Assembly: GCA_000934665.2 (NCBI GenBank)
Contig: KZ538104.1
Location: forward strand, 62,001 to 126,000
Direction of reading: 5' to 3'
DNA: 64,000 nucleotides
From: Catajapyx aquilonaris
Lineage: Eukaryota
The notes beneath the pieces are model-generated. The model saw only the letters and a program-made list of their open reading frames with translations. It had not been told where the DNA came from and made no database searches. Made by a program: the position numbers and the translations under genes. This document shows, one piece after another, positions 29,186 to 55,399 of the stretch (its first letter is position 1; the number at the start of each line of letters is the position of its first letter).

Positions 29186-30292
29186 ATGGAGGAAGGAGAC
29201 TCTTCCTTCGTCAAGGAGGAGGCTTGGAAGGTTGACGTGAAGCAAGAAGCGGAGATAGATGAAGTCGCCTTACCACTAGAGAACATTCCGACGGTGGATC
29301 AAGTGATTCAGGAGGTGAAGAAATGTGAGGAGGAAATGGTGGCGGCAATGCCCGATGTGACTGAAGGTGCGGACGATCCTCTCGGCATCAGTGTCTGTGA
29401 CAAGTTGAGGTATGAGAATACGTCGATGCCTTCAGGTGACAAATTTGTTGGACAGTCAGTGCAGGCTGATGTTAAAAAATTTAAGACGACTTATTTGTGT
29501 GAATTCTGTGGAGAGGCATGCAGTAGCTCCGGCAAGATGTGGAATCATGTGCGGACATTTCATGCTGAAGAAGAGCTGTTTACTTGCTCTTATTGCCAGA
29601 AGGTTTTTTGTACAAGCTACACCTTACGCAGTCATGTGAAGAGACATAATCCCAAAGAGAATGGGAACGTCACACTTGAAGCTAATTCAACCAACATGCC
29701 AATCTTGCCGCATATGACTCTAGGCAATAAGTTATCAGTAGTAAGGTTAGCAAAAACCAGTAATGTTATGATTTTGAATTGTGAATTTTGCAGAGCAGAA
29801 TTGTCCACATCCAGTGAATTAGAGGAACACATTAAGGCAGTTCATGTTGGTGACAAAAAATTAATATGCAAGCTCTGCCCGAGAGCATTTCGAAGCAATC
29901 AGGGTTTGAGTAGTCACATTAGGTGGCATGATCGAGACAGTGCTGCATATTTGGACAACTCAACTGAAGACAATAATTTGAACAAGTCCTGCAAAAAACT
30001 GTGTAAAGCTCACTATGACACCTGGGCTGTTAAGTGTGACTTCTGCCCAGCCTCATTGTCCCATCCAAGTAACTTATGGAAGCATGTGAGGTCATTTCAT
30101 AATGAACAGCCACTGTACAAATGCAAATATTGCCAAAAAGAATTTTGTGCACATTCGATCCTAAAGACTCACATGAAGAGGCATAATCCCAAGTTTGTGT
30201 GTTACAATGACTGTGGAGAATATTTTGACACAAGTGATGAATTGCTTGCACACATGAACGCTTCTCATGGTTGTGCTGTTGCGCCAGTGTGA
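29186..30292 (+). CDS. C2H2 zinc-finger protein, array copy 1 (acidic leader plus 7 fingers arranged 2+2+3)
   Basis: ATG at 29186 follows the acceptor at 29173-29174 (the ORF track's upstream 30 aa are intronic). Seven CxxC...HxxxH fingers, e.g. CEFCGEACSSSGKMWNHVRTFH and CKYCQKEFCAHSILKTHMKRH. Confidence 0.9.
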   Translation: MEEGDSSFVKEEAWKVDVKQEAEIDEVALPLENIPTVDQVIQEVKKCEEEMVAAMPDVTEGADDPLGISVCDKLRYENTSMPSGDKFVGQSVQADVKKFKTTYLCEFCGEACSSSGKMWNHVRTFHAEEELFTCSYCQKVFCTSYTLRSHVKRHNPKENGNVTLEANSTNMPILPHMTLGNKLSVVRLAKTSNVMILNCEFCRAELSTSSELEEHIKAVHVGDKKLICKLCPRAFRSNQGLSSHIRWHDRDSAAYLDNSTEDNNLNKSCKKLCKAHYDTWAVKCDFCPASLSHPSNLWKHVRSFHNEQPLYKCKYCQKEFCAHSILKTHMKRHNPKFVCYNDCGEYFDTSDELLAHMNASHGCAVAPV

Positions 30293-30520
30293 TGCATTTG
30301 TGAAGTATATTCTTTTTAGTGGTGACCAATTTCATACAGGTCATTCACGTGGTTTGTGTGGTCATATGGCACAGATGAAATATTTTTTACTTGCCATGTA
30401 TGTAGAACACTTGGCAAATGCACCATTTTTGACAAGTAAAGTTTGAATACTGATTTTGTTGAACTGCATTTTTGTGAATCCCTATGTTTCAAGTATAGCC
30501 TACATTTGTTTTTATTTCAG

Positions 30521-32273
30521 TACATACACACTCAATGACATTTTGACGTTATTGGAAGGCAAGGGAATACATGTGCAGGATGATAAGCAGATAGACGTGT
30601 ACATCCAGCCTCCAACTAATGCAAATGCAGATTTAACAGATGAGGACTCTGGTGATGAAGAGGCTTTCACTTTGGAGGACCTACCTGGATCACAGCTCTT
30701 AGAACCTGCTGAATTGCTGAATGAATTTCAAAATGATGACATCAATGAAGAGGAGGAAATGTGTACTGCTAATGAAAGGAGAGATCAACCTCCAAAGAAG
30801 GTACGCAAGAAAGAAAACAAGAAGACTTACGATTGGTGTCACCATCCCTTAAAATCTGATTTGATTGACTGGCCAGAAAACGTGAATGTTGAGAGTGAGT
30901 TGAGTCCCATGGAGTCATTTTTCCTATTCTTTGATGAGCACATAATTTCTTTCATAGTGGATAAAACCAATTGGTATGCTGTCCTGCATAATAGGGTAGG
31001 TGACGTTACTGCTAATGAACTCTATTGCTTTATTGGCATACTTTTATTGAGTGGATACGTCCAAGTACCACAAAGACGAATGTTCTGGGAAACCGTGTGT
31101 GATACTCGTAATGAGCTTGTCTCCGCATCCATTTCTAGGAATCGCTTTGAATTTATCCTGGCAAATATTCACGTTTGTCAAAATGACAAGCTGAATGAAG
31201 AAGACAAGTTTGCGAAGGTCCGCCCTCTGTATGACGCACTGAACTATAATTTCTTACGACATGCCCCATTTGAGGAAAACCATTCAATTGGCGAGTCAGT
31301 GGTGCCTTACTATGGTTGCCGTGTTCTGAAGCGATTAATTAGGGGAAAGGCCATAGGATATGGCTACAAAGTGTGGGTTGGTGCTACCTCGAAGGGCTAT
31401 GTAATTTGGAAGGATCCTTACCAATGTAAATCCACCACTGTAAACCCTGCTTATAACAATTTTGGTCTGGGTGCAAGTATTGTCCTGCAGTACTGTGACA
31501 CTTTGACCTCAGCTGCTGCACTGCCTTATCACTTGTTCTTTTACAACTTTTTTGGGAGCCTTCCTTTGTTGGAGGAACTGAAAAACAGACATATTAGGGC
31601 ATCGTGTACATTGAGCGAAAATTCCATTGCAGACTGCCCTTTGAAGGATAGTGCTGCTATGAAGAAAACTGACCCAGGCGCTTTTGATTTCAAAACTGAT
31701 TCAAAGGGGAACTTGATTGTCATGAAATGGAATGACCACAGTGTTGTCACAGCAGCATCTAATGCTATCGGAATTAGTCCATTCCATGAAATAACTCGTT
31801 ATTCTGAAAAGGAAAAGAAATTGGTGAAAATTCCCCAGCCCCACCTCATACATGAGTTGAACCAATATGCTGGTGGAGTTGAAAAGTATGACCAAAACAT
31901 GAGTTTATATCGTGTTACCATCAGAGGAAAGAAGTGGTATTACCCTCTGATAGTCGACTGCATTGAAAGTGCAGAACAAAATGCTTGGCACTTGCATTGC
32001 ATTAATGGGGGTAAGTTAGACTTCTTAACTTTCAGAAGAAGACTTGTTTGCAACTTGCTTGAAACCTTTGGGAAAGGTAGTGGTTCAAGACCCAGAAGGC
32101 CGCATAAAAACCAGCTAATAGATTCAAGATATGATCGTGTAGATCATTTAGTTGCTCCCCAAGAGAAACAAACCAGATGCAGGCAATGCCACATGAAATG
32201 CACAACACGATGCGTGAAATGTGACGTAGGACTTCACACTAGATGTTTCATAGGATTTCATACAAAACCATAA
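30521..32273 (+). CDS. piggyBac transposase-derived exon (PGBD2/PGBD3-like), intact ORF with substituted catalytic triad
   Basis: PGBD3-like N-terminus TLNDILTLLE..IQPPTNANADLTDEDSGDEE, ISRNRFEFIL, DKFAKVRPL, RGKKWYYPL and a C-terminal Cys-rich domain CRQC..CVKC..LH..CF..FH. Preceded by acceptor ttgtttttatttcAG (30519-30520); AATAAA at 32388. No TTAA-flanked TIRs recognised. Confidence 0.9.
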
Positions 32274-32519
32274 ATTTCAGGAATTGTAATAATAATTGTG
32301 ATTGTTGTAAGTTATTGCAAGAGCTGGTTATTGTAGTGGGAAACATATGTTCATATAATTATTTTCATGCTCTATGTTATTTTGATGAATAAAGTCAATG
32401 GACACTGTGATTCACTTATCAGTGCCTTATTGCTCCATGAATTCTGGCTCCGTATCATTTTCAGCAATACTTGTGTGTGTCAAAGTTCAGCCTCCCACCC
32501 AAGAAGTGGTAGTTGACCA

Positions 32520-32595
32520 TTATTATTATCATTATCATTATCATCATCATCATCATTATCATCATCATCGCTGACTACCCCTTATAGGGAAATGC

Positions 32596-32664
<69 letters not shown>

Positions 32665-32712
32665 CATTATTATTATTACCCTATTATTGTTATTGTTGTT
32701 ATCATCATCATC
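32520..32712. repeat. Compound (TTA/TCA/TGA)n microsatellite before ZNF unit 2
   Basis: Mixed trinucleotide runs. Confidence 0.9.
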
Positions 32713-33062: not shown

Positions 33063-34028
33063 ATGTCCACTATGAAGGAAGAGGACGCTACCGTCATCAA
33101 GGAGGAGGCTTGGGAGGTGGAAGTGAAGCAAGAAGTGGAGACAGATGAAGTCCTGTTACCACCAGAGAACATTCCGATGGTGGAGGTGAAGGAATGTGAG
33201 GAGGAAATGGTGGTGGCAATGCCTGTTGTGACTGAAGGTGCTGACGATCCCCTTGGCATCACTTCGTGTGACAAGAGGAAGTATGAGAATGTGTCAATGC
33301 CTTCAGGTGACAAACTAGTCACCCAGTCAGTGCAGAGTGGTGTATGCGAATTCTGTGGAAAGGCGTACCGTAACTCGAGGGACTTGTGGAATCATGTGCG
33401 GACAGTTCATGCTGAAGAAAAGCTGTATACTTGCTCTTATTGCCATGAAGTTTTTTGTACAAGCTACGCCTTATGCAATCATGTGAAGAGACATAAACCC
33501 AAAGATAGTGGGTACGTCACACTTGAAGCTCCTTCAGCCAACGTGCCAGTATTGCGCAACATGACTGAAGGTAGTAAGATTCCAGTAGTAAGGTTAGCAA
33601 AAACAACCAATGAAATGCCTTTCAAGTGTGGATTTTGCAGAACAAAATTTTCCACCTCCAGTGATTTAGAGGAACACATTAAGGCAGATCATGTTGGTGA
33701 TAATAAATTAACATGCACAGTATGCCAGAGAACATTTCAAAACTTGCAGGGTTTAAGCAGTCACATTAAGGCAATTCATGGTGAGAAATTAAAATGCAAG
33801 GTCTGCCAGAGAGAATTTAGAAATATTCAGGCTTTGTGGAGTCACATTAAGGCAGTTCATGGTGAGAAATTAAAATGCAAGGTCTGCCAGAGAGAATTTA
33901 GAAATATTCAGGATTTGACCAGTCACGTTATGTGGCATGATCGAGAGAGGGCTGCACTTTTGGACAACTCAACTGAAGCCGAGTCAAACGAGTCCTGCAA
34001 AAAGATGTGCAAGGAGCATGCAACATAA
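33063..34028 (+). CDS. C2H2 zinc-finger protein, copy 2 (6 fingers, C-terminally truncated)
   Basis: 5'UTR intron 32972-33062. Internal 81-bp finger duplication (33780/33861). A frameshift gives TAA at 34026; the decayed last fingers remain visible at 34030-34270. Confidence 0.75.
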   Translation: MSTMKEEDATVIKEEAWEVEVKQEVETDEVLLPPENIPMVEVKECEEEMVVAMPVVTEGADDPLGITSCDKRKYENVSMPSGDKLVTQSVQSGVCEFCGKAYRNSRDLWNHVRTVHAEEKLYTCSYCHEVFCTSYALCNHVKRHKPKDSGYVTLEAPSANVPVLRNMTEGSKIPVVRLAKTTNEMPFKCGFCRTKFSTSSDLEEHIKADHVGDNKLTCTVCQRTFQNLQGLSSHIKAIHGEKLKCKVCQREFRNIQALWSHIKAVHGEKLKCKVCQREFRNIQDLTSHVMWHDRERAALLDNSTEAESNESCKKMCKEHAT

Positions 34029-35149
34029 AGGCAAGCAAATTTGACTGATGCCAAGCCTCAATCTCCCATCCAAGTAACTTATGGAAGCATGTGAGCATAG
34101 TGGACAGCCATTGTATCAATGCAAACATTCACAAAAACAATTTTGTGCACATTCCATCCTAAAGACTCGCATCAAGTTTGTGTGTTCTGACTGGGGAGAA
34201 CATTTTGACAAAAGTGAAGAATTGATGCAACATTTGGATGTTTCTCATGGTTCAGCTGTTTCACCAGTGTGGTGCATTTGTGAAGTTTTTTGTTTTTTTG
34301 TTCATACTATTAATATTAACAAGACATAATTTAGGTTGCATAAATGAAGAACGGTTCTTCATAGTTTGTTTTTGCCAACATTCATGTCACTTTTGTTCTC
34401 TTGACTAGTATGTTGTGATACTTCCTCCCAATCTATTACGCTGTAAGTGCCCCTTTGCGTACAGTTTATTCAACTTGTGGTATATGCACCTGAATCAGGT
34501 GATGACCAATTTCATTCAAAAGATTTGTGTACTTGTACAGCAAAGATTATTAAAGACAGTTTATCCGCAGGTGGAGTGTAAATCAGACAGTAGCTTTGCA
34601 ATGACCCCTTTACTACCCGCTAGGGTTTGAGGGGGAGGACATCTTCGACTATCTTACTCTAACATATCATTTTCTTAATCACATTAGCAAAGAAATTGTA
34701 CGAATTATTATAAATGTATACTTGCAAAGGATCTACAAATAAACAAAACATGTCATAACTGGGAACAGTTGAGGGCATAATTTTAAGAAATATTTCTACT
34801 TGGTGTGCCATAAATGGGACAGCTGTGTACATGATATGGGCCAATGTAAAGTTTTCCTGCACATTACAATTTGGGCAAGTCATCTCTGAGTCTAATGTAA
34901 GTGAACCAGTTTTAGTGTAAATACGGAGCTATTGATTTCTCAGATTCACCAACAATCTAGTAAGATAATAAGGGCATATTTAACGCTAAATACTGTTCCT
35001 GGTTAAAATATTTTTTCACTGCGGAGTAGTCACCATATGTGTGGGATACAGAAAGCCTTTGCAAATCAATGTCTTGGCAGTGGTCTTGGTAGTGGAGAAT
35101 TAAAGAATGAGTATATCTTGGCAAATTTTCAATCACAAGATCGATTGTT

Positions 35150-35549
35150 CTGCAGTTGTACTGTATGGTGACATGTTGACCTCAGATGCTGCACTGCCTT
35201 ATCACATGTTCTTTGATAACTTTTTTGGAGCCTTCCTTTGTTATTGGAGGAACTTGGCAACAAAAAATATTAGGGCATTGTGTACATTGCGTGAAAATTA
35301 CATTGCAAGAGTGCCCTTTGAAATATGAACGGATAGGGCTGCTATGAAGAAAACTGAGCTATAGGCACTTTTGATTTCAGAACTGATTCATAAAGATACT
35401 TGATTGCCATCATGATATATAATTACCACGGCGTTGTCACAGCAGCATCTAATGCCATTGGAATATTCCCACTCCATAACGTAACTTTTTTTTTTCTGAA
35501 AAGGAAAAGAAATATGCGAAAATTCCCCAGCTCCACCACATAAAGGAGC
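35150..35549 (+). pseudogene. Decayed fragment of the piggyBac-derived ORF
   Basis: Collinear with about 31480-31858 (LTSDAALPYHMFFDNFF, gctgctatgaagaaaactga, gttgtcacagcagcatctaatgc), with frameshifts and stops; ends at the (TTA)n tract. Confidence 0.88.

Positions 35550-35633
<84 letters not shown>
35550..35633. repeat. (TTA)n microsatellite before ZNF unit 3
   Basis: Pure TTA run. Confidence 0.97.
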
Positions 35634-35964
35634 TACGGTATTATGCAGGTGTGCATGATTGTGACGTCACCGTGACAGTTCCCGGCACACCAGTCGGAAT
35701 GGGCCCGTCGCCAGAATTCAAGATGGCGACTCTTCTTGGCTGGTTTGTTCCTGCGACGATTTGGGTTGAGGAGATTTCCAGCAACGAGGGGGGACAGCTT
35801 CGTCCCTGGTTGCATCGCAGGAGAGCAGAAGGGAAGGCCCCTGAAGCCATCCGTGGAAAGGAGGGTGGGCACTGCCGGTGAGTAGAGAGAGAGAAATATC
35901 AGCCCATCATTTTCATTATAATTTTCCAATCAAAAGGCTAATCAAAACTTTCCCATCTCTCTAG

Positions 35965-37101
35965 ATGTCCACTATGAAGGAAGAGGACGCTACCGTCATC
36001 AAGGAGGAGGCTTGGGAGGTGGAAGTGAAGCAAGAAGTGGAGACAGATGAAGTCCCCTTACCACCAGAGAACATTCCGATGGTGGATCAAGTGATTCTGG
36101 AAGTGAAGCAATGCGATGAAGAAATGATTCAGGAGGTGAAGAAATGTGAAGAGGAAATGGTGGTGGCAATGCCTGATGTGACTGAAGGTGTGGATGATCC
36201 CCTTGGCATCACTTTGTGTGACAACTTGAGGGTTGAGAGTTCGTCGATGCCTTCAGGTGACAAACTAGTCACACGGTCAGTGCAGAGAGGTGTTAAGAAA
36301 CGTAAGACGACTCAGTTATGTGAATTTTGTGGAGTGTGGTACAGTACCTCGACCAACCTGTGGAATCATGTGCGGACATTTCATACTGGAGAAGGCCTGT
36401 TTACTTGCCCTTATTGCCATAAAGTTTGTAGTATGATCTCTAGCTTTTACAGACATGTGAAGAGTCATAATCCAACTAGTAATGGGTATGTCACTATTGA
36501 AGTTAATTCAACTGATGTGGCAATCTTGCAGCGTATGACTGAAGACAGTAAGATACCAGTAGTATGGGTTGCTAAAACAAGCAATGCAATGACTTTCAAG
36601 TGTGCATTTTGCAACACACAATTTTCCACTTCCAGTGAATTAGAAGAACACTTTCAGGCAGTTCATGTTGGCGAGAAGAAATATAAATGCAAGCTGTGCT
36701 GGAGAGTATTCCGAAAGAGATACACTTTGAGTTCTCATTTGAAGTGGCATTCTAATCTAGAGATGGTGGTGCATTTGAGAAATGCTGATTCAAACACGTC
36801 CTGCAAAAAAATGCATAAAGAGCACTACAACAAAATGGCAAGTAAATGCGATTTCTGCCAAGCCTCAGTCACCCATTCAAAGTACTTAATGAGACACGTG
36901 AGGAAATTTCATAGTGACCAGCCATTATTCAAATGCAGATATTGCCAAAAAGAATTTAGCTCAAGTTTCGTACGAAACACTCACATGAAGAGACATAATC
37001 CAAAGGGAATGTGTTCTAACTGTGGAAAACAATTTGACAAAAGTGATGAATTGCTTGCACACATGGGTGTTTCTCACGGTTCAGCTGTTTCACCATTGTG
37101 A
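35965..37101 (+). CDS. C2H2 zinc-finger protein, copy 3 (7 fingers)
   Basis: 5'UTR intron 35878-35964; intact 378-aa ORF paralogous to copy 1. Confidence 0.9.
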   Translation: MSTMKEEDATVIKEEAWEVEVKQEVETDEVPLPPENIPMVDQVILEVKQCDEEMIQEVKKCEEEMVVAMPDVTEGVDDPLGITLCDNLRVESSSMPSGDKLVTRSVQRGVKKRKTTQLCEFCGVWYSTSTNLWNHVRTFHTGEGLFTCPYCHKVCSMISSFYRHVKSHNPTSNGYVTIEVNSTDVAILQRMTEDSKIPVVWVAKTSNAMTFKCAFCNTQFSTSSELEEHFQAVHVGEKKYKCKLCWRVFRKRYTLSSHLKWHSNLEMVVHLRNADSNTSCKKMHKEHYNKMASKCDFCQASVTHSKYLMRHVRKFHSDQPLFKCRYCQKEFSSSFVRNTHMKRHNPKGMCSNCGKQFDKSDELLAHMGVSHGSAVSPL

Positions 37102-37139
37102 TGCACTTGTAAAGTATTTTTTGTTCATTTCATACCAAT

Positions 37140-38796: not shown

Positions 38797-39894
38797 ATGG
38801 AGGAAGGAGACGCCAACTTCGTCAAGGAGGAGACTTGGAAGGTTGAAGTGAAGCAAGAATTGGAGATTGAAGAACCGTCCATACTGCCGGAGGACATTCC
38901 GACGGTGGATGAAGTGATTCAGGAGGTGAAGGAATGTGAAGAGGAAATGTTGGTGGCAATGCCCGATGGGACTGAAGGTGCGGACGATCCCCTTGGCATC
39001 ACTTCGTGTGACAAGCGGAGGTATGAGAATGTGCCTTCAAGTGGCACATTAGTCGGACAGTCCGTGTCGCAGAGAGGTAGTAAGAAATGTAAGATGACTA
39101 ATTTGTGTGAATTCTGTGGAGAGGTATGCAGCAACTCGACCAAGTTGTGGAATCATGTGCAGACATTTCATACTGGAGAAGAGCTGTTTACGTGCCCTTA
39201 TTGCAAGACAGTTTTTAGTATGATATCTAACTTATGCAATCATATGAAGAGACATAATTCCAATGGGAGTAGACTTGTCACTCTTGAAGTTAATTCAACC
39301 GATGTGCCAATCTTGCAGCGTATGACTGAAGGCAGTAATATACCGGTGGTATGGGTTGCAAAAACAAGCAACGCAATGACTTTCAAGTGCGGATTTTGTG
39401 AAACAAAATTTTTCACATCCAGGGAATTAGAGGAACACATTAAGGCAGATCACGTTACTGGTAAGAAGAAATACAAATGCAAGCTGTGCCGGAGAACATT
39501 TCCAACCAGTCAGGGTTTGAATAGTCACGTTAGGTGGCATTGTGATCAGGAGAGGGCTGCACGTGTGGACAACTCAACTGAAGCTGATAAGTCCTGCAAA
39601 GAGATGCGTAAAGCGCATTTCAAATCAAGGGCAGTTAAATGTGACTTCTGCTCAGCCTCAGCCTGCAATCCAAGTACCTTAAGGTTGCATGTGATGAAAT
39701 TTCATAGTGAACAGCCATTGTACAAATGCAAATATTGCCAAAAAGAATTTGGTTCTCGTTCCATCCTAAACAATCACATAAAGCGGCATAATCCCAAGTT
39801 TATGTGCTCTGACTGTGGTGAACATTTTGACAAAAGTGAAGAATTGCTTGCACACATGGATGTTTCTCACGGTGCTGCTCTTATGCCAGTGTGA
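38797..39894 (+). CDS. C2H2 zinc-finger protein, copy 4 (7 fingers)
   Basis: 5'UTR intron 38700-38786; intact 365-aa ORF. Confidence 0.9.
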   Translation: MEEGDANFVKEETWKVEVKQELEIEEPSILPEDIPTVDEVIQEVKECEEEMLVAMPDGTEGADDPLGITSCDKRRYENVPSSGTLVGQSVSQRGSKKCKMTNLCEFCGEVCSNSTKLWNHVQTFHTGEELFTCPYCKTVFSMISNLCNHMKRHNSNGSRLVTLEVNSTDVPILQRMTEGSNIPVVWVAKTSNAMTFKCGFCETKFFTSRELEEHIKADHVTGKKKYKCKLCRRTFPTSQGLNSHVRWHCDQERAARVDNSTEADKSCKEMRKAHFKSRAVKCDFCSASACNPSTLRLHVMKFHSEQPLYKCKYCQKEFGSRSILNNHIKRHNPKFMCSDCGEHFDKSEELLAHMDVSHGAALMPV

Positions 39895-41955: not shown

Positions 41956-42294
41956 CGGTATTATTGGGTATTATGCAGGTGTGCATGATTATGACGTCAC
42001 CGTGACAGTTCCCGGCACACCAGTCGGAATGGGCCCGTCGCCAGAATTCAAGATGGCGACTCTTCTTGGCTGGTTTGTTCCTGCGACGATTTGAGTTGAG
42101 GAGATTTCCAGCGACGAGGGGGGACAGCTTCGTCCCTGGTTGCATCGCAGGAGAGCAGAAGGGAAGGCCCCTGAAGCCATCCGTGGAAAGGAGGGTGGGC
42201 ACTGCCGGTGAGTAGAGAGAGAGAGAAATATCAGCCCATCATTCAATCTGATTTTCCAATCAAAAGACTAATCAAAACTTTCCCATCTCTCTAG

Positions 42295-43398
42295 ATGTCC
42301 ACTATGAAGGAAGAGGACGCTACCGTCATCAAGGAGGAGGCTTGGGAGGTTGAAGTGAAGCAAGAAGTGGAGACAGATGAAGTCCCGTTACCACCAGAGA
42401 ACATTCCGATGGTGGATCAAGTGATTCTGGAAGTGAAGCAATGCGATGAAGAAATGATTCAGGAGGTGAAGAAATGTGAAGAGGAAATGGTGGTGGCAAT
42501 GCCTGATGTGACTGAAGGTGTGGATGATCCCCTTGGCATCACTTTGTGTGACAACTTGAGGTATGAGAATGTGTCGATGCCTTCAGATGACAAACTAGTC
42601 ACACGGTCAGTGCAGAGAAGTGTTAAGAAGTGTAAGACAACTCAGCTATGTGAATTTTGTGGAGAGGTATGCAGTAACTGGACCAAGTTGTGGAATCATG
42701 TGCGGACATTTCATACTGGAGAAGATCTGTTTACTTGCCCTTATTGCCAGAAAGTTTGTAGTGCGATCTATAAATTTTGCAAGCATGTTAAGACTCATAA
42801 TGGTAATGAGTATGTCACTCTTGAAGCTAATTCAACTGATGTGGCAATCTTGCAGCGTATGACTGAAGACAGTAAGATACCAGTAGTATGGGTTGCAAAA
42901 ACAAGCAGAGGAATGACTTTCAAGTGTACATTTTGCGAAACAAAATTTTCCACTTCCAGTGAATTAGAGGAACACTTTCAGGCAGTTCATGTTGGCGAGA
43001 GGAAATATAAATGCAAGCAGTGCCAGAGAACATTTCCAAACAGGCAGGGTTTGAGCAATCACATGAAGTGGCATTGTCGAGGGAGTGATGCATGTTCAGA
43101 CAACTCTACTGAAGCCAATTCAAACGACACAAATGAAGTTAAATGCGACTTCTGCCCAGCCACAATCTGCCGTCCAAGTAACTTGTGGCAGCATGTGAGG
43201 AAATTTCATAGTGAACAGCCATTGCACAAATGCAAATATTGCCAAAAAGAATTTAGTGCACGGTCCATCCTAAACAACCATATACAGCGGCACAATCCCA
43301 AGTTTATGTGCTCTGACTGTGGTGAACATTTTGACAAAAGTGAAGAATTACTTGCACACATGGATGTTTCTCACGGTTCGGCTGTTATGCCAGTGTGA
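42295..43398 (+). CDS. C2H2 zinc-finger protein, copy 5 (7 fingers)
   Basis: Degenerate (TTA)n at about 41875-41955, promoter cassette, intron 42208-42294, intact 367-aa ORF. Confidence 0.9.
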   Translation: MSTMKEEDATVIKEEAWEVEVKQEVETDEVPLPPENIPMVDQVILEVKQCDEEMIQEVKKCEEEMVVAMPDVTEGVDDPLGITLCDNLRYENVSMPSDDKLVTRSVQRSVKKCKTTQLCEFCGEVCSNWTKLWNHVRTFHTGEDLFTCPYCQKVCSAIYKFCKHVKTHNGNEYVTLEANSTDVAILQRMTEDSKIPVVWVAKTSRGMTFKCTFCETKFSTSSELEEHFQAVHVGERKYKCKQCQRTFPNRQGLSNHMKWHCRGSDACSDNSTEANSNDTNEVKCDFCPATICRPSNLWQHVRKFHSEQPLHKCKYCQKEFSARSILNNHIQRHNPKFMCSDCGEHFDKSEELLAHMDVSHGSAVMPV

Positions 43399-46467: not shown

Positions 46468-47140
46468 ATGGAGGAAGGAGACGCCAACTTCGTCAAGGAG
46501 GAAGCTTGGAAGGTGGAAGTGAAGCAAGAAGTGGAGATAGACGATGCGGCCTTTCTGCTGGAGAACATTCCGAAGGTGGATGAAGTGATTCTGGAAGTGA
46601 AGCGAAGTGAAGAGGAAATGGTCTTGGCAATATACCTGATGTGACTGAAGGTGCAGACGTTCCCCTCAGTTTGTGCGACAAGTTGAAGTATAAGAATGTG
46701 TTGAAGCCTCCAAGTGACAAATTAGTTGGACAGTCGCTGCAGAGAGGTGTTAAGAAATTTAAGGTGGCTGATTTATGTGAATTTTGTGGAGAGATATGCA
46801 GTAGTTCAGCCGAGATGTGGAATCATGTGCAGACATTTCATATACTGGAAAAGATCTGTTTACATGCCTTTATTGCCAGAAAGTTTGTATTATGTTCTTT
46901 AACTTCTGCACACATGTGAAGAGTCATAATCTCAAAGATAGTGGGCATGTCACTATTGAAGTTAATTCAACTGATGTGCCAATCTTGCAGCGTATGACTG
47001 AAGGCAATAAGATATACCGGGTTGCAAAAACAAGCAATGCAATGACTTTCAAGTGTAGATTTTGTGACACAAAATTTTTCACCTCCACGGAATTAGAGGA
47101 ACACATTAAGGCAGTTCATGTTGGTGAGAAGAAATGTTAA
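46468..47140 (+). pseudogene. C2H2 zinc-finger copy 6, pseudogene
   Basis: Starts ATGGAGGAAGGAGAC like copies 1 and 4, but homology is split over several frames. It lacks the promoter cassette and first exon and is truncated after finger 3. Confidence 0.88.
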
Positions 47141-47469: not shown

Positions 47470-48555
47470 ATGTCCACTATGAAGGAAGAGGACGCTACCG
47501 TCATCAAGGAGGAGGCTTGGGAGGTGGAAGTGAAGCAAGAAGGGGAGATAGACGAAGCGCCCTTACTGCCGGAGGACATACCTACGGTGGATCAAGTGAT
47601 TCAGGAGGTGAAGGAATGTGAGGAAGAAATGGTGGTGGCAATGCCCGATGGGACTGAAAGTGCGGACGATCCCCTTGGCATCACTTCGTGTGACATGCGG
47701 AGGTATGAGAATGTGCCTTCAAGTGGCAAATTATTTGAAGAGTACCTGCAGATAGGTGTCAAGAAATTTAAGGTGGCGGATTTATGTGAATATTGTGGAG
47801 AGGTAAGCAGTAGCCCGGCCAAGTTGTGGGATCATGTGCGGACAGTTCATATTGGAGAAGAGTTGTTTACGTGCTCTTATTGCCGGAAAGTTTGTAGTAC
47901 AATCCATACCTTACGCAGACATGTGAAGGCTCATAATCCCAATGATAGTGGGCATGTCACTCTTGAAGCTAATTCAACCGACATCCCAATCTTGCAGCGT
48001 ATGACTGAAGACAGTAAGATACCAGTAGTGTGGGTTGCAAAAACAAGCAGAGGAATGACTTTCAAGTGTACATTTTGCGACACAAAATTTTCCACCTCCA
48101 GTGAATTAGAGGAACACATTAAGGTAGTTCATGTCACTGGTAAGAAGAAATATAAATGCAAGCAATGCCTGAGAACATTTCCGAACAGTCAGGGTTTGAG
48201 CAATCACATGAAGTGGCATTTTCGAGGGAGTGATGCATGTTCGGACGACTCAACTGAAGCCGATTCAAACGACACAAATGAAGTTAAATGCGACTTCTGC
48301 CCAGCCACAGTCTGCCGTCCAGGTAACTTGTGGCGGCATGTGAGGAACGTTCATAGTGGGCAGGCATTGTACAAATGCAAACATTGCCAAAAAGAATTTT
48401 GTGCACGCTTCATCCTAAACACTCACATGAAGGAGAGGCATAACAATCCAAAGCGAAAGGGTAAGTGTGCTGACTGTGGAGAACATTTTGACAAATGTGA
48501 TGAACTGCTTGCGCACATGGACGTTTGTCAGGGTCGGGCCGTTCCACAAGTGTGA
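47470..48555 (+). CDS. C2H2 zinc-finger protein, copy 7 (last finger ends HxxxC)
   Basis: Intron 47386-47469; intact 361-aa ORF; promoter cassette lacks the CRE. Confidence 0.88.
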   Translation: MSTMKEEDATVIKEEAWEVEVKQEGEIDEAPLLPEDIPTVDQVIQEVKECEEEMVVAMPDGTESADDPLGITSCDMRRYENVPSSGKLFEEYLQIGVKKFKVADLCEYCGEVSSSPAKLWDHVRTVHIGEELFTCSYCRKVCSTIHTLRRHVKAHNPNDSGHVTLEANSTDIPILQRMTEDSKIPVVWVAKTSRGMTFKCTFCDTKFSTSSELEEHIKVVHVTGKKKYKCKQCLRTFPNSQGLSNHMKWHFRGSDACSDDSTEADSNDTNEVKCDFCPATVCRPGNLWRHVRNVHSGQALYKCKHCQKEFCARFILNTHMKERHNNPKRKGKCADCGEHFDKCDELLAHMDVCQGRAVPQV

Positions 48556-49320: not shown

Positions 49321-49559
49321 ACTCTGCAAACATGGGTGTGTCTCTCATTTCAGGTGAGATGCATTGACTCATTTTAAAATTTTGTGACCATTTCAAATGC
49401 TTAAAAAATTGAACATTATCATGTGTCAAGCCCAGCAAAATCTAACTACTCTGGAAACATATTGATAAAATAAAAATCTCACGAAAAATGCTCAAGTGAC
49501 ATTGGAATTCATTTTCTAACATTGCATTTTATTTTTGGGGGGATGTAAAATTCCACAAT

Positions 49560-50525
49560 TCGTAGCGAAATTCGGGAAAAACAAAAGCGTGACCTTGGAA
49601 TCCATTTTCCGACCTTGAAAGTCATTTTGTGACCTTGAGACTTTTCGCCATTTGCAGCCAAATTCGGGAAAAACAAAAGCGTGACCTTGGAATCCATTTT
49701 CCGACCTTGAAAGTCATTTTGTGACCTTGAGACTTTTCGCCATTTGCAGCCAAATTCTGGAAAAATAAAAGCGTGACCTTGGAAACAATTTTCCGACCTT
49801 GAAAGTCATTTTGTGACCTTGAGACTTTTCACCATTTGCAGCCAAATTCTGGCAAAATAAAAGCGTGACCTTGGAAACCATTTTCCGACCTTGAAAGTCA
49901 TTTTGTGACCTTCAGACTTTTCACCATTTGCAGCCAAATTCGGGAAAAAGAAAAACGTGACCTTGGAATCCATTTTCCGACCTTGAAAGTCATTTTGTGA
50001 CCTTGAGACTTTTCTCCATTTGCAGCCAAATTCGGGAAAAATAAAAGCGTGACCTTGGAATCCATTTTCCGACCTTGAAAGTCATTTTGTGACCTTGAGA
50101 CTTTTCGCCATTTGCAGCCAAATTCGGGAAAAATAAAAGCGTGACCTTGGAAACCATTTTCCGACCTTGAAAGTCATTTTGTGACCATGAGACTTTTCAA
50201 CATTTGCAGCCAAATTCTGGAAAAATAAAAGCGTGACCTTGGAAACCATTTTCCGACCTTGAAAGTCATTTTGTGACCTTGAGACTTTTCTCCATTTGCA
50301 GTCAAATTCGGGAAAAATAAAAGCGTGACCTTGGAATCCATTTTTTGACCTTGAGACTTTTCACAATTTGTAGGGAAATTCGGGAAAAATAAAAGCGTGA
50401 CCTTGGAGTCAATTTTCCGACCTTGAAAATCATTTTGTGACCTTGAAATCTGTTTTTCGACATTTATTCCCCAATTTGTAACGAAATTCTGGGAAAAAAA
50501 TAAACGTGTGACTTTGGATATCATT
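49560..50525. repeat. 92-bp tandem repeat (about 10 units)
   Basis: Unit starts aaattc(g/t)gg at 49568, 49660, 49752, 49844, 49936, 50028, 50120, 50212, 50304, then shorter or degenerate units; each full unit has three GACCTTG sub-repeats. Confidence 0.95.
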
Positions 50526-50814
50526 TTCTGATATGGAACATTGTTGTTTTACACTTAAAATTGCAGTTCTTGTAGCAAAAGTCTAAAGAAAAATATTATC
50601 GTGACCTTGGACTGTTTTTTTTTTTTTCGGCCGACAATTTATAACTTACAACCCACATGGGAATAATTATTTTGTAAGCTTAAAAATAGTTCAAGCAGCT
50701 TTCAAACTGCTCCTGCTGAATATCTGCTACAAAATGCAGGAAAGACCAAATAAAGTTACATGAAATACCCTGGTAAATAATGGTCAATTCAAAACTATAC
50801 TCGTGACACAATTG

Positions 50815-51347: not shown

Positions 51348-51796
51348 TCAGTTATAAATATTATTTGCGCTGTACATTATTTCCATCTCATCCATGATTG
51401 CCTTCAGCTTCCAAAAATATTTATTGACAATAGCCTGGTTCAACTTTTGTCCCCGTCCTGTATTCAGATGTAGTGCTCTCCTCTTTTGGATCTCTGGTTG
51501 CCTCCTGTAGAATTCCTTCAACCAATGCGTACCTGCCATTTTTTCTGTAGTGCTGAAGTTGTGGGGAATATGGTACGATTCAGCAAATGCATACACACTA
51601 CGTCGCAGAAGTTTTGCAGTGAGTGGAATTCCCAAATATTCTAGTCTGAGCAATTCACTGACAAGTCTCTTCTCTTGGTCCATGTCTAGCATGCAGTGTC
51701 GACCCAGTTTCTTGATGCACTTGCCAGAGGTGACGTGATTCCGGAGAGTTCGTCGTGGTATCCCGTACTGATTTGCTGCTTGCAACACTGGGACAC
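51348..51796 (-). CDS. pogo-derived DNA-binding protein, exon B (rest of HTH_psq plus CENP-B-type HTH)
   Basis: Acceptor cccacAG|GT (phase 1); VPVLQAANQYGIPRRTLRNHV, QEKRLVSELLRLEYLGIPLTAKLLRR, AGTHWLKEFYRRQPEI. Confidence 0.8.
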
Positions 51797-52102
51797 CTGT
51801 GGGTTACAACAGCACATTCTTATTAATATGAGAGAGAGGTTGTTGGTACCTTGACATTTAACTAATTCGTGATAATCGTGAAAAGTGATAACTACCTTAT
51901 AATCAATATTTTGGGACCATGAATATGATGAAGTGGAAAAAAATTAAGTCATTGCTTCGATTATAATCCAGCTAAATTTTCCTTTGTGCAAGCCACTTAT
52001 TGCTATGTCCAAAATTGCTCGATTTGGACTCAGCTCTGTACCCCCAGGAGGGCCACTTTGTACCCCTGGTTGGGAACTCCTGCTGTAGAGGATGGTATCA
52101 AT

Positions 52103-52236: not shown

Positions 52237-52417
52237 AATTACTCCTACTACAAATATTCATTCAGAAAGAGAAAAACCTCCCAAAAAACTCCGCCGTCAA
52301 AGAGTTAAATTCTCCTCATCAGGTCTATTTAATAGTGCATTATCTGATGGACTTAACAAACTTTGGCATTAAATGCATCATGGCCAACATTATTACAGGC
52401 AAAATTTCCGACAATAA

Positions 52418-52754: not shown

Positions 52755-52796
52755 TTAGACATAACAACTTCTTCAAGCTTCATAAATATTACATAC

Positions 52797-52902
52797 CTCT
52801 TTTAACAGCCTTCATAGCACACTCCATGGTACGGATGTCCCACGTAGCATATTTTGGTCTGGACGCCATGCTCAAAATAAGCTGCATATATATTTCCATC
52901 CT
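52797..52902 (-). CDS. pogo-derived DNA-binding protein, exon A (start of HTH_psq)
   Basis: Acceptor tctaatttttcttttcAG; MASRPKYATWDIRTMECAMKAVKRG; donor AG|GTATGT (phase 1) matches exon B. About 173 aa from ATG 52869. Confidence 0.75.
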
Positions 52903-53191
52903 CTGAAAAGAAAAATTAGATAAGCATAAGCAACTGGCTCATACCATAGACACTGCACCTTACACAAACATTACCAAATAAAAGTTATGGTGTATACTAC
53001 CCCAAGTCGGAGAAAAAGAATGCAGGTGAGTTAGTTTGTATGCGCAGGAATTATTTTCCAATTAGGCTCTTCTTCAGCTTCAGCGGTGCAGAAGAACAGC
53101 TTCCAGATGTAGCCTCTTGGCCTGCACTGTGGTTTTATGTAACGAAGTGGGTAATGATAAACATGATTATGTCCGAAACCTGTCCAATGTT

Positions 53192-55399
53192 TTATTTCCG
53201 TATCTCCGACACTGTCACTTCGTTGCCTAACGAGTAGCTTTGAACTAGGGCAATAAGCTGTCTCTCACACTGTAGTTTCAGATGTGTTGGGACATCTTCT
53301 CTTAAAATTCCCATCAGATAATCTCCTAACCTTGAGTAGCGGTCTGCTTGCGGAGGCTGAACCGCAAGTGCTCTAAAATAAAGGAAAATGCAAGTGTAAG
53401 GACACGAATGCAGAAATGGGTGAAAATATTACTGGTTGTAAGTTTGGTTTGGTTCACTGAAGCAAATATCACCAATACCATGAAGCATAAATTGATTTAT
53501 CACTATTAATTATGCGGATAGCATGAAGAGTATGTCTGTAGCAGATGGGGAAAATGCAGCTGTTGATATGTGGGCTAGTCTAAATACACTAATATCTAAT
53601 GTCTATTAGAGCTTTTTTGTCTGTCCTCGTCAGCTGTGAATAATGTGCATTTCTCACTTGTTCAGTTGATCAAGTTCATAGTCAATTTTTTGGACCATCT
53701 CCTCCTCTTGATCTGCAGTCCTGGTGTTCGGCCTCTTTTTTGGGCTCCGGTTTGCAGTGGGAGAAGACTTGGGAGACATAAAAGGGGCCTGGGATGAGGG
53801 ACAAGGAGTGGGTCTCAATGAATTGGACGAGCTTGGAATGACAACCAAATATGAGGTAGGTGCAGGGGTCACTGTATGTCCTGCAGTGGGAGGAATTTCT
53901 TCATTCTTCTCTTCTTGTTCTTCTTCACCGTCCCCCGTAGTCAACTCAACCACAGGTTCTATTGAGAGCTCCTGAGATTCAACTTGAGGCTCCCCCAAGT
54001 CCAGCGGCTCAGCAAAGATGCCTTCCTTCTGGCAGGATAACACTGACTGCTCTCGGTTCTTCATTCTAGGCTGCAAACTGCCCATCGTCCTGAAAATGAC
54101 GATGCCATTAAAAACCACAGAGCAAGGTGGACAGTAAGAGTGCCTCTGAAACCTGGCAACATATTAAATTTTAAAATTATGTATCAAAAAATATGGCACA
54201 TTTCTTGTGCATTGTAAAACTGCCGACAAAAACATGTCGCAACATTTGACATATACCAAAATGTCTCACAATGAAGTGTCCCACCAATTTGATACTTACT
54301 TCCTGGATCCAACCCTGTTCCGCATGAAGAGCATGTCCTGAAAGTGGGCCCACTTCACACCAACCGCACCATGCGATTTAGAAGCATTGTGGTAGGCAAC
54401 GCGAAACTGGTCCACCAAATTCTTCCAGCTCGTTTTGCATTGGTAACCTGCAATGAAATAATTCAGATGTATACAGTACTACTAATGGCACGTGTCTTAT
54501 ACCAATTCGAGCAGAAGACGCTCTAGTGGAAAATGTGCTTGTAGGAACGAGACTGATACTCACTGGTCATTCCCATTTCCTTTGCGACCTGTGACCACAG
54601 TAGGTCACCAAGTGCTTTGTCCCTGTAGTCCTGGCGGCACTTGTCCCATAGAGTGGGCCTGGCGTGTACCTCCCGAATGAGTTTTTCCTTCTTCAGTTTT
54701 TCTTGGGCGCGTAGCATTGCTCGTTCCGCCTTCGTCTTTGCCCTGTCGAGTCTGCCTGGAGTGGGAAATGAAGAGGAGAGGAGGTGGTTGGGGAAGCTGG
54801 AAAGTGGAGGGACTGGTCCAGGGGGCCGCTTGTGATTGCAAGTGGCAGTGAGGGCTTCAAATCACACTTTCAGAGCAGTTAGAAAATTAATCTTTTGCTC
54901 ACAGTGTGTCCAAACTTTGCACAAAAGAGCCCGAATTTTCTTGCTACGACCAGTCCTTCACGTGAGTGTCATGCGTCCCAAGTTTTTGCTTACAATTCGA
55001 ATCTGCCTACATTGTTGCCGACAATAAACTTCAACGTACATTTCAACTTTTCCTTCGCTACGTCCTATGAACAAAATAATTGTTGTCCAAACTTAATTTT
55101 ACAGACCATTTTACATCAGTCAGCTTACCATGAGTATTGGCCATCTTGTGTCCAAGAGTATGCGTCACCATTGACAAGGCAGATTTGGACGTCATCTGAG
55201 ACGTTAGTTTGTCAGTCCCCGTCGTAGTGGATTCAGGCGAGTCAGCTCTGGGTTCAGAAGATTCCATTTCGGCTGTCACCATATTCTCAGGAACAGCATC
55301 CATCATCGGCTCTTCCTTCACCTCCATGTTCCAAAACGCCTCAGACTCCATCATCTCCTCCTCTGTCTTCATAGCATAGCCTGCCACCTCCAATGCCAT
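53192..55399 (-). CDS. MADF-BESS (Adf1/Dip3-like) transcription factor, 5 coding exons, about 407 aa
   Basis: Exons 55399-55129, 54755-54564, 54447-54300, 54089-53658 and 53372-53192 all have GT-AG sites with compatible phases (1,1,2,2). MADF: LIREVHARPTLWDK..YRDK..LWSQVAKEMG..CKTSWKNLVDQFR..KWAHFQDMLFM. BESS-like C-terminus DRYSRLGDYLMGILREDVPTHLKLQCERQLIALV. Confidence 0.85.

What the first reader, a model, noticed from the sequence alone, without database searches (positions are those of the whole stretch)
29186..55399. Shared acidic SUMO-motif leader linked to different DNA-binding modules across the cluster
Seen: the ZNF leader MKEE..IKEEAWEVEVKQE..LPPENIPMV resembles the MADF gene's separate leader exon MKTEEE..SEAFWNMEVKEE..VPENMV (EA-W-x2-EVK[QE]E..PEN). 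Both carry several hydrophobic-K-x-E motifs and end at a splice donor. Known: that motif is the SUMOylation consensus, and SUMO recruits SetDB1-type silencing. Inference: a KRAB/ZAD-analogous effector cassette attached to C2H2 arrays, a dead piggyBac and MADF-BESS, i.e. a candidate modular repressor or TE-control system. The similarity is short and compositionally biased.
Basis: partly seen in the sequence, partly recalled or inferred. Interest (0 to 1): 0.78.

Follow-up and report, generated by a model that had tools for sequence, protein, structure and literature searches.

The report
Acidic SUMO-motif leader on zinc-finger genes
A young cluster of insect zinc-finger genes shares an acidic front end dense in SUMO-attachment motifs, and similar front ends head a neighbouring MADF gene and, in a cockroach relative, a tamed piggyBac transposase, which hints at a portable regulatory module whose function is untested.

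Summary
The motif is real. Seven tandem C2H2 genes (five intact, one truncated, one pseudogene) start with an acidic leader carrying 2-3 [VIM]KxE sites, one invariant Trp and PEN/PED. The first coding exon of the MADF gene has the same layout. Their similarity beats composition-preserving shuffles (3 of 20000; 12-13 of 20000 with the KxE blocks kept), but a ZNF-only HMM scores it only E=4.1 at window scale.

The "ends at a splice donor" claim fails. ZNF leaders run into the fingers in one ORF.

The piggyBac ORF is catalytically dead (D268G, D346Y, D447E), has no start codon and begins at an acceptor. Its 74%-identical Periplaneta americana relative is annotated with an acidic KxE-rich leader exon spliced at the homologous position.

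Three DNA-binding classes therefore carry this kind of leader. The cockroach and window leaders do not align better than shuffles, no relatives appeared among 1.84 billion proteins, and no RNA data were available. SUMO-dependent repression is inference only.

Closest analogues are FiNZ/KRAB zinc-finger genes and KRAB-transposase fusions. I rate it a new variant of a known kind, of moderate interest.

The parts
29186..30292 (+). Z1: intact C2H2 gene, 368 codons. Leader type B (MEEGD..FVKEEAWKVDVKQE..LENIPTV) at 29186-29311.
29404..29415 (+). Candidate internal donor GAG|GTATGA (exon end 29409, phase 2). Joined to the piggyBac exon it gives a Ser junction codon.
   Evidence: 20 phase-2 GT sites lie in the Z1 CDS, and this one fits the donor consensus best. 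The same AGGTATGAG occurs in Z4, Z5 and Z7. Inferred; no RNA support.
30521..32273 (+). piggyBac-derived exon (PGBD), 584 codons plus stop. It starts at acceptor tttatttcag| (30520|30521, phase 2) and has no in-frame ATG before codon ~105 of the stop-to-stop ORF. Catalytic triad is G/Y/E. AATAAA lies at 32388.
33063..34028 (+). Z2: truncated or rearranged ZNF gene (321 codons, internal finger duplication). The remaining fingers are degenerate in another frame at 34078-34329. Leader type A.
35131..35531 (+). Decayed piggyBac fragment (about 52% aa identity, with stops). It still has Asp at the second catalytic position (FFDNFF).
35717..35877 (+). Inferred 5' UTR exon of Z3, holding the conserved 14-mer TTCAAGATGGCGAC. 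Donor CCG|GTGAGT at 35877|35878. An 87-nt intron ends at ctctctag|ATG (35964|35965).
   Evidence: Inferred from sequence; no RNA.
35965..37101 (+). Z3: intact ZNF gene, 378 codons. Leader type A (MSTMKEEDATVIKEEAWEVEVKQE..PPENIPMV) at 35965-36090. Predicted helix at residues 40-68.
38797..39894 (+). Z4: intact ZNF gene, 365 codons, leader type B.
42295..43398 (+). Z5: intact ZNF gene, 367 codons. Its leader and upstream 330 nt are 98% identical to Z3, while the finger part has diverged.
46468..47140 (+). Z6: pseudogene. The leader is followed by a stop after 58 codons, the fingers are frameshifted, and there is no upstream 14-mer.
47470..48555 (+). Z7: intact ZNF gene, 361 codons, leader type A.
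55129..55399 (-). MADF gene, first coding exon (90 codons + 1 nt). Acidic core MKTEEEMMESEAFWNMEVKEEPMMDAVPENMV, then a Ser/Thr-rich tail. Donor CATG|GTAAGC.
54564..54755 (-). MADF exon 2: N-terminal half of the MADF domain (profile positions 1-43).
54300..54447 (-). MADF exon 3: C-terminal half of the MADF domain (profile positions 44-84).
53658..54089 (-). MADF exon 4: low-complexity acidic and Pro/Ser-rich region. It ends either at TGA (53656-53654) or at donor CAA|GTGAGA.
   Evidence: inferred
53192..53372 (-). Probable last MADF exon. It is in frame after a strong acceptor, has a BESS-like C-terminal pattern, and its TAA overlaps AATAAA (53196-53191). Pfam does not call BESS.
   Evidence: inferred

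Best explanation
The region is a young tandem array of lineage-specific C2H2 zinc-finger genes in an insect genome. The closest database relative of a neighbouring gene is from the cockroach Periplaneta americana.

All copies inherited the same two-part N-terminal region by duplication and gene conversion:
(i) a roughly 40-residue acidic stretch, predicted unstructured, with 2-3 [VIM]KxE sites (the SUMO-acceptor consensus), one invariant Trp and a PEN/PED motif;
(ii) a conserved acidic helix.

The same kind of leader, and probably a related one, opens the neighbouring MADF gene. A leader of the same motif class, though not alignable, is spliced onto the cockroach relative of the domesticated, catalytically dead piggyBac ORF that sits directly behind Z1.

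I read the leader as a lineage-specific effector region of the FiNZ/KRAB type, attached to interchangeable DNA-binding modules. Its most likely mode of action is SUMO conjugation by Ubc9 at the KxE lysines, which then recruits SUMO-reading co-repressors.

Shown: the sequences, the motif enrichment, the dead triad and the cockroach exon join. Inferred: the window's gene models, the leader-to-PGBD join in this genome, SUMOylation and repression.
For: Leader copies.
- Seven ZNF leaders and one MADF leader were found.

ZNF-MADF similarity.
- It exceeds composition shuffles: 3 of 20000, 12-13 of 20000 with the KxE blocks kept, and 11 of 5000 by HMM.
- It is the top non-ZNF hit among 1318 segments.
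- Both leaders start right behind a probable acceptor, after a short intron.

Motif enrichment and structure.
- KxE is enriched in every leader, including the cockroach ones (6 observed against 0.33-0.39 expected, 0 of 20000 shuffles).
- AF2 gives residues 1-39 no secondary structure (block pLDDT 50-63) and a confident helix at 40-68 (block pLDDT 86-91). Consensus SUMO sites lie preferentially in disordered regions and prefer Ile/Val (PMC10363806, passages).

Selection among paralogues.
- Block 43-85 has the lowest dN (0.03-0.10, against 0.12-0.47 in the finger part).
- The Z3 and Z5 leaders are identical while their fingers differ (dN 0.23), which points to gene conversion.
- Finger contact positions -1, 2, 3 and 6 are less conserved than other finger positions (0.525 against 0.695, P=0.006).

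The piggyBac ORF.
- Full-length DDE_Tnp_1_7 match.
- D268G, D346Y and D447E against PDB 6x67.
- No in-frame ATG ahead of the conserved N-terminus, and an acceptor at 30520|30521.
- No terminal inverted repeats.
- Periplaneta P0002 (74% identity over 96% of the query) begins MKCEIKEEVITVKEEW..AQLN and joins the homologous region exactly at that acceptor.
- Three more Periplaneta isoforms carry the same exon, with R or S at the junction, so that exon ends in phase 2.
- Z1 offers a phase-2 GAG|GTATGA donor that gives Ser at the junction.
Against: - A ZNF-only HMM scores the MADF leader at only E=4.1 at window scale.
- The window leader profile scores the Periplaneta leaders no better than shuffles: 673, 1613 and 646 of 2000 shuffles reach the real score. 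The Z3 leader against the P0002 leader by Smith-Waterman is also at chance (1783 of 5000). The three classes therefore share a motif class, not a demonstrably homologous cassette.
- The profile search of 1.84 billion proteins gave 1 hit at E<=0.001, a spurious repeat protein. The word-index search of the leader found nothing.
- The leader core (residues 1-42) shows mixed dN/dS, 0.15-1.65, on very small counts.
- Z1 contains 20 phase-2 GT sites, so frame compatibility alone is weak evidence.
- KxE sites in acidic disordered regions are common in transcription factors of every kind. An acidic stretch with Trp or Phe also looks like an activation domain.
- There is no RNA, SUMO or repression evidence of any kind.
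Confidence: 0.45

Rival explanations
1. There is no cassette. The ZNF leaders are alike only because the genes are recent tandem copies. The MADF and cockroach leaders resemble them only because acidic disordered N-termini of transcription factors commonly carry KxE sites. On this view the resemblance is compositional or convergent and has no shared function.
For: - HMM E=4.1 at window scale.
- The cockroach leaders score no better than shuffles.
- No relatives were found in the two large protein searches, and no Pfam family matches.
- The match covers only about 28-35 residues.
Against: - The pairwise ZNF-MADF score is reached by only 3 of 20000 shuffles, and by 12-13 of 20000 when the KxE blocks are kept.
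- The position (N-terminus, directly behind an acceptor) and the order M-K-x-E .. W .. EVKxE .. D.VP .. PEN are the same in both.
- KxE density is far above composition expectation in all three classes.
Confidence: 0.35
2. The leader is an acidic transactivation domain: acidic residues around Trp/Phe and hydrophobic residues, followed by an amphipathic helix. The KxE lysines would at most damp its activity. The cluster would then encode activators, not silencers.
For: - Composition: 10 Glu in 45 residues, an invariant Trp flanked by acidic residues, and a confident acidic helix at residues 40-68.
- From general knowledge (recalled): acidic-plus-aromatic stretches are typical of activation domains, and SUMO sites often sit beside them as 'synergy control' motifs (paper titles seen only in the listing).
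Against: - Every lysine in the Z3 leader core (3 of 3) and the MADF core (2 of 2) sits in a KxE context. That argues the lysines themselves are the selected feature.
- The analogous Glu-rich FiNZ and KRAB domains belong to repressor families (PMC10547256, passages).
Confidence: 0.2
3. Physical exon sharing. In this genome the Z1 leader (up to 29409) is alternatively spliced to the piggyBac exon at 30521. One promoter and one leader would then yield either a zinc-finger protein or a leader-PGBD fusion, as in CSB-PGBD3 or KRABINER.
For: - The PGBD ORF has no start codon of its own ahead of its conserved N-terminus, and it begins at a phase-2 acceptor.
- Homology to the Periplaneta protein starts exactly there.
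- The Periplaneta leader exon ends in phase 2, with S or R at the junction.
- Z1 has GAG|GTATGA in phase 2, giving Ser.
- No AATAAA or ATTAAA lies between the Z1 stop and the PGBD exon, whereas AATAAA follows the PGBD stop.
Against: - No transcript data exist.
- 20 phase-2 GT sites lie in Z1.
- AGGTATGAG encodes the conserved R-Y-E, so it may be kept for coding reasons.
- The Periplaneta leader is only 29 residues and does not align with the Z1 leader.
- The true upstream exon could lie outside what I examined.
Confidence: 0.3

Closest known systems
FiNZ zinc-finger genes of cyprinid fish (Wells et al. 2023, PMC10547256; passages read)
   Same: A short, Glu-rich N-terminal sequence with no similarity to known domains. 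It heads a large, fast-evolving, clustered, lineage-specific C2H2 family proposed to silence TEs. Its cofactor is unknown.
   Different: - FiNZ is 28 aa and sits on its own exon upstream of the finger exon. Here the leader and fingers share one exon.
- The taxon differs (an insect), and only seven copies were seen.
- I did not compare the sequences with the FiNZ consensus.
- FiNZ genes have knock-down evidence for TE repression. Nothing comparable exists here.
KRAB zinc-finger genes and KRAB-transposase host-transposase fusions (KRABINER; Cosby et al., bioRxiv 10.1101/2020.05.07.082677; passages read), and CSB-PGBD3
   Same: One effector region is found on zinc-finger arrays and also on captured transposase ORFs. 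[quoted passage not shown] The transposase part has lost catalysis here, yet its ORF is kept.
   Different: - There is no KRAB domain (no Pfam hit).
- The leader is predicted disordered rather than folded.
- The fusion is annotated in Periplaneta only and is inferred for this window.
- The whole transposase, not just its DNA-binding part, is retained.
ZAD zinc-finger genes of insects
   Same: An insect-lineage N-terminal module on clustered, rapidly duplicating C2H2 genes.
   Different: ZAD is a folded, zinc-binding C4 dimerisation domain (recalled). The leader has no such cysteines and no zf-AD Pfam hit.
SUMO-dependent repression motifs in transcription factors ('synergy control' motifs; Sp3 IKEE, recalled) and SUMO-SetDB1 silencing in Drosophila (Su(var)2-10 papers; titles and abstract starts only)
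   Same: [IV]KxE sites in disordered regions. The literature links SUMO on chromatin-bound factors to co-repressor and SetDB1 recruitment.
   Different: Those are single regulatory sites inside otherwise unrelated proteins, not a family-defining leader. No SUMOylation is shown here.
MADF-BESS proteins of insects
   Same: The MADF domain is present, split over two exons. A C-terminal exon has a BESS-like pattern.
   Different: BESS is not detected by Pfam. An N-terminal KxE leader is not a described feature of this family, as far as I recall.

Membership tests
C2H2 zinc-finger proteins | Repeated C-x2-C-x12-H-x3-5-H fingers matching Pfam zf-C2H2 | tested here: met
   E from 1e-22 to 5e-26 for six ORFs; seven fingers per gene.
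MADF DNA-binding domain (PF10545) | Match to the whole 84-position profile above the gathering score | tested here: met
   Exon 2 covers profile positions 1-43 (31.9 bits) or 1-37 (31.1 bits). Exon 3 covers 44-84 (26.5 bits). The cut-off is 22 bits.
BESS motif (PF02944) | Pfam BESS match C-terminal to MADF | tested here: not met
   No BESS hit for 53192-53428(-) at E<=0.01 or at E<=10. The C-terminal pattern only looks BESS-like by eye.
piggyBac transposase (DDE_Tnp_1_7) | Full-length match to the transposase core | tested here: met
   E=4.4e-72 over profile positions 1-349 of 349; matches to piggyBat and T. ni piggyBac structures.
Active piggyBac transposase | Catalytic DDD triad (D268, D346, D447 of T. 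ni piggyBac; the identity of the triad is recalled) | tested here: not met
   alignment to 6x67: G, Y and E at the three positions. Periplaneta P0002 has D, N, D.
Mobile piggyBac element | Terminal inverted repeats flanking the ORF | tested here: not met
   the only inverted pairs around 30250-32700 are microsatellite or short chance pairs.
Host-transposase fusion gene | The transposase ORF lacks its own start and is entered through an acceptor just upstream | tested here: met
   acceptor at 30520|30521. Homology to P0002 begins at that base. The first in-frame ATG comes about 100 codons later.
Host-transposase fusion gene | A host exon is spliced in frame onto the transposase ORF (transcript evidence) | tested here: inconclusive
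   Annotated in Periplaneta (P0002). In this window there is only a frame-compatible donor. No RNA run was available.
KRAB / ZAD / SCAN / BTB zinc-finger-associated domains | Pfam match in the N-terminal region | tested here: not met
   no such family for any ZNF ORF, nor for Z3 residues 1-118 at E<=10.
FiNZ domain | Similarity to the 28-aa cyprinid FiNZ consensus, encoded on its own exon | not tested
   The consensus lies in a supplement that I did not open. The exon structure differs: here the leader and fingers share one exon.
SUMO substrates | psi-K-x-E consensus sites | tested here: met
   2-3 sites per window leader and 6 in the cockroach leaders, all above shuffle expectation.
SUMO substrates | Lysines actually conjugated to SUMO | not testable with these tools
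   This needs mass spectrometry or in-vitro Ubc9 assays.

The most novel reading that the evidence does not exclude
Polyneopteran insects may have their own portable silencing cassette: a disordered, SUMO-acceptor-dense acidic leader. By tandem duplication, exon shuffling and alternative splicing it would be placed in front of C2H2 arrays, MADF domains and captured dead transposases. That would make it a functional counterpart of KRAB, including KRAB-transposase fusions, which works through direct SUMO conjugation instead of a folded cofactor-binding domain.
Probability: 0.15. Interest if true: 0.75.

Novelty: new variant of a known kind. Interest (0 to 1): 0.45.

Why it matters
How zinc-finger families outside tetrapods recruit silencing machinery is an open question. 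The authors of FiNZ say its cofactor is unknown (PMC10547256). A leader that works simply by being SUMOylated would be a simple, testable answer for one insect lineage.

The leader-PGBD join, conserved between this genome's ORF and a cockroach gene, would extend the 'effector plus captured transposase' rule from vertebrates to insects.

If the leader is only a generic acidic tail, the locus is an ordinary young ZNF cluster beside a domesticated piggyBac gene.

Tried and rejected
Searches that found nothing useful:
- Word-index search with Z3 residues 1-100: 36 candidates, none at E<=0.001.
- HMMER profile of eight leaders against 1.84 billion proteins: 1 hit, an unrelated 1034-aa repeat protein matched through 11 weak stretches.
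- Leader alignment A2 against longer proteins at E<=10: 4 hits, all Periplaneta. All came in through the Periplaneta row I had put into the profile, so they are not independent support for ZNF-cockroach homology.
- Window leader profiles against the cockroach leaders: no better than shuffles.
- ESM Atlas: no usable hit.
- Pfam on the leaders: nothing meaningful.
- BESS: not detected.
- tblastn of the cockroach leader isoforms against the window: only weak hits with E>=0.2, the best of them on the ZNF leaders.

RNA evidence:
- No RNA holder is listed.
- The one run laid (X1, contigs) covers intergenic DNA and shows no splice joints. Its single joint (42206 to 35964) matches the Z3/Z5 repeat.

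Unavailable:
- Whole genome.
- Earlier findings.
- Cluster members of P0002, so the other Periplaneta isoform (X1) could not be seen.

Considered and rejected:
- A lola/mod(mdg4)-type locus with one shared N-terminal exon: each ZNF copy has its own leader and its own upstream 14-mer.
One search lists 20 in the CDS, four of them within codons 72-89.
Full report
WHAT IS IN THE WINDOW

The window is animal DNA at about 41% G+C. On the - strand lie two large exons of a Toll-type receptor with LRR and TIR domains (8330-10924 and 22206-23564).

Between 29 and 49 kb the + strand holds seven tandem copies of a C2H2 zinc-finger gene.
- Z1 (29186-30292), Z3 (35965-37101), Z4 (38797-39894), Z5 (42295-43398) and Z7 (47470-48555) are intact ORFs of 361-378 codons, each with seven fingers.
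- Z2 (33063-34028) is truncated and rearranged.
- Z6 (from 46468) is a pseudogene.

An exact 14-mer, TTCAAGATGGCGAC, lies 243-284 nt upstream of the ATG of six copies; Z6 is the exception. There are 6 matches against 0.44 expected. In Z3 a GTGAGT donor (35877|35878) and a ctctctag|ATG acceptor (35964|35965) suggest a 5' UTR exon and an 87-nt intron. This is inferred, with no RNA support.

Directly behind Z1 lies a piggyBac-derived ORF (30447-32273). On the - strand at 55399-53192 lies a MADF gene.

THE OBSERVATION

A six-frame motif scan finds the leader eight times: the seven ZNF copies and the MADF gene. The finding's coordinates are the ATGs of Z1 and of the MADF gene.

There are two leader subtypes. 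Z2, Z3, Z5 and Z7 begin MSTMKEEDATVIKEEAWEVEVKQE. Z1, Z4 and Z6 begin MEEGD..FVKEEAWKV[DE]VKQE.

The MADF core reads MKTEEEMMESEAFWNMEVKEEPMMDAVPENMV. Its match to the ZNF leader was tested several ways.
- The Smith-Waterman score against Z3 residues 1-42 is 58. Shuffling only the acidic core reaches that in 3 of 20000 trials. Shuffles that keep the two KxE blocks reach it in 12 and 13 of 20000.
- Among 1318 six-frame segments of at least 30 aa, the MADF leader is the best non-ZNF match (58 against a next best of 34).
- A ZNF-only HMM scores it 7.3 bits, reached by 11 of 5000 shuffles.
- Against this, the same HMM gives only E=4.1 at window scale.

I conclude that the resemblance goes beyond composition but remains suggestive rather than proven homology.

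[VILMF]KxE sites are enriched over own-composition shuffles in every leader. Z3 has 3 against 0.23 expected (P=0.0003). MADF has 2 against 0.17 (P=0.006). All three lysines of the Z3 core and both lysines of the MADF core sit in such sites.

The leaders do not end at splice donors.

In the ZNF genes the leader runs on in frame, through a conserved acidic block, into the fingers. The block reads IQEVK[KE]CEEEMVVAMPD.TEGADDPLGI.

In the MADF gene the first coding exon continues 49 codons beyond PENMV to CATG|GTAAGC (55129|55128, phase 1). Only that donor is in frame with the acceptor of exon 2 (54756|54755).

My model of the MADF gene has five coding exons: 55399-55129, 54755-54564, 54447-54300, 54089-53658 and 53372-53192. 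Exons 2 and 3 carry the two halves of the MADF profile. The last exon looks BESS-like by eye and ends in a TAA that overlaps AATAAA, but Pfam finds no BESS.

THE piggyBac ORF

The ORF matches the whole transposase core (E=4.4e-72). Aligned to T. ni piggyBac (PDB 6x67), it has Gly, Tyr and Glu at D268, D346 and D447. That these three form the catalytic triad is recalled knowledge. No terminal inverted repeats flank it.

A decayed second fragment at 35131-35531 still has Asp at the middle position.

The ORF has no in-frame ATG ahead of its conserved N-terminus and starts at a good acceptor (tttatttcag|, 30520|30521, phase 2).

Its best database relative is a Periplaneta americana protein named 'piggyBac transposable element-derived protein 3-like isoform X2'. 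It is 613 aa, with 74% identity over 96% of the query.
- That protein begins MKCEIKEEVITVKEEWNDTKILEPEAQLN and then S-TYSLNEIL.
- Homology to the window starts exactly at the window's acceptor.
- Its triad reads D, N, D.

Three further Periplaneta 'uncharacterized protein' isoforms on the same 170-Mb contig carry the same exon behind still more KxE-rich acidic sequence. They have R or S at the junction, so that exon ends in phase 2.

So in a second species an acidic KxE leader is annotated as spliced onto this domesticated transposase. In the window, Z1 offers a phase-2 donor, GAG|GTATGA (29409|29410), that would give the same Ser junction. It is one of 20 phase-2 GT sites in Z1, and there is no transcript evidence.

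LIMITS OF THE 'SHARED CASSETTE' IDEA

The window leader profile scores the cockroach leaders no better than shuffles: 673, 1613 and 646 of 2000 shuffles reach the real score. Z3 against the P0002 leader by Smith-Waterman is at chance (1783 of 5000). Only a stretch further upstream in P0124 gives a weak match (64 of 5000).

The leader has no detectable relatives in any search.
- The word-index search found none.
- The HMMER profile search of 1.84 billion proteins gave one spurious repeat protein.
- The ESM Atlas gave no usable hit.
- Pfam gave nothing meaningful.

What the three classes demonstrably share is a motif class: acidic, unstructured and KxE-dense, with a Trp.

EVOLUTION WITHIN THE ARRAY

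Z3 and Z5 have identical leaders and 98% identical upstream DNA, but their finger regions have diverged (dN 0.23, dS 0.35). That points to gene conversion or mosaic duplication of the promoter-leader segment.

Block 43-85 has the lowest dN (0.03-0.10). The leader core gives mixed dN/dS values on very small counts.

Finger positions -1, 2, 3 and 6 are less conserved between paralogues than other finger positions (mean pairwise identity 0.525 against 0.695, Mann-Whitney P=0.006). This is the pattern seen in fast-evolving ZNF clusters.

STRUCTURE

AlphaFold2 was run on Z3 residues 1-118 with the shallow alignment A1. Residues 1-39 get no secondary structure, with 10-residue block pLDDT of 50-63. 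Residues 40-68 form a confident helix, with block pLDDT of 86 and 91 for residues 41-60. The rest is poorly predicted.

KxE sites in a disordered segment fit what is reported for consensus SUMO sites in Drosophila, including the preference for Ile and Val (PMC10363806, passages).

MECHANISM

The most likely mechanism is inferred, not shown. The leader would be an effector region whose lysines are SUMO-conjugated, and SUMO-reading co-repressors would then be recruited to the sites bound by the fingers, the MADF domain or the dead transposase. The literature link from SUMO to SetDB1 silencing in flies I saw only as titles and abstract starts.

The main rivals are a generic acidic tail with no shared function, and an acidic activation domain.

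COMPARISON WITH KNOWN SYSTEMS

The nearest analogue is FiNZ, a 28-aa Glu-rich N-terminal sequence of cyprinid ZNF genes with an unknown cofactor (PMC10547256).

The leader-PGBD arrangement parallels KRAB-transposase fusions and CSB-PGBD3. In 8 of 9 fusions examined there, an acceptor just upstream of the transposase ORF mediates capture (bioRxiv 10.1101/2020.05.07.082677).

The leader is not KRAB or ZAD, and no other Pfam ZNF-associated domain matches.

My paper searches found no description of such a leader in insects. I read passages of one Blattodea transcription-factor paper, which does not mention it (PMC13433471). That is only weak evidence that it is not in print.

VERDICT

I rate it a new variant of a known kind, with interest 0.45.

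Noticed in passing
window 8330-10924 (-) and 22206-23564 (-): Two large exons of a Toll-type receptor: many LRRs, an internal LRRNT, a TIR domain and a His-rich tail. They are separated by an intron of about 11 kb.
   Followed up: partly
window 28902, 32786, 35717, 38517, 42047, 47227 (+): An exact 14-mer, TTCAAGATGGCGAC, lies 243-284 nt upstream of six ZNF start codons (6 matches against 0.44 expected) and is absent upstream of pseudogene Z6. It is probably a promoter or 5'-exon element. The AAGATGGCG core recalls YY1/Pho-type sites (recalled, not tested).
   Followed up: partly
window 35637-36211 vs 41967-42541: The promoter-plus-leader segments of Z3 and Z5 are 98% identical, while their finger regions differ (dN 0.23). 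This points to gene conversion or mosaic duplication confined to the 5' part.
   Followed up: partly
window 35131-35531 (+): A decayed piggyBac fragment with stops. It keeps Asp at the second catalytic position (FFDNFF), whereas the intact ORF has Tyr there.
   Followed up: partly
window 51348-51803 (-): An ORF with HTH_psq and HTH_Tnp_Tc5 matches (the N-terminus of a pogo/CENP-B-type transposase) that ends at ..NIYN. It lies downstream of the MADF gene on the same strand and is probably a decayed pogo element.
   Followed up: no
window about 49500-50550 (-): Several overlapping ORFs repeat the same ~30-residue peptide (..KVSRSQNDFQGRKMDSKVT..), so the DNA holds a tandem repeat with a unit of about 92 nt. 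It was not examined with the repeat tools.
   Followed up: no
window 28760-28835, 32519-32680, 35540-35640, 60100-60300: Long trinucleotide microsatellites (ATT/GAT-type) sit just upstream of several ZNF promoter segments and elsewhere. In the ORF lists they appear as poly-Leu, poly-Ile, poly-Asp and similar runs.
   Followed up: no
Z3 residues 40-68 (window 36082-36168): An acidic helix predicted with high confidence (block pLDDT 86-91). Z3 and Z5 carry an 11-residue insertion here (ILEVKQCDEEM) that resembles the adjacent IQEVKKCEEEM. This block, not the KxE core, has the lowest dN among the paralogues. MADF lacks it.
   Followed up: partly
proteins P0122-P0124 (Periplaneta americana): Short annotated isoforms (109-144 aa) that consist almost wholly of acidic KxE-rich leader sequence with different short tails. 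This suggests a locus with several alternative 3' exons behind common leader exons.
   Followed up: partly
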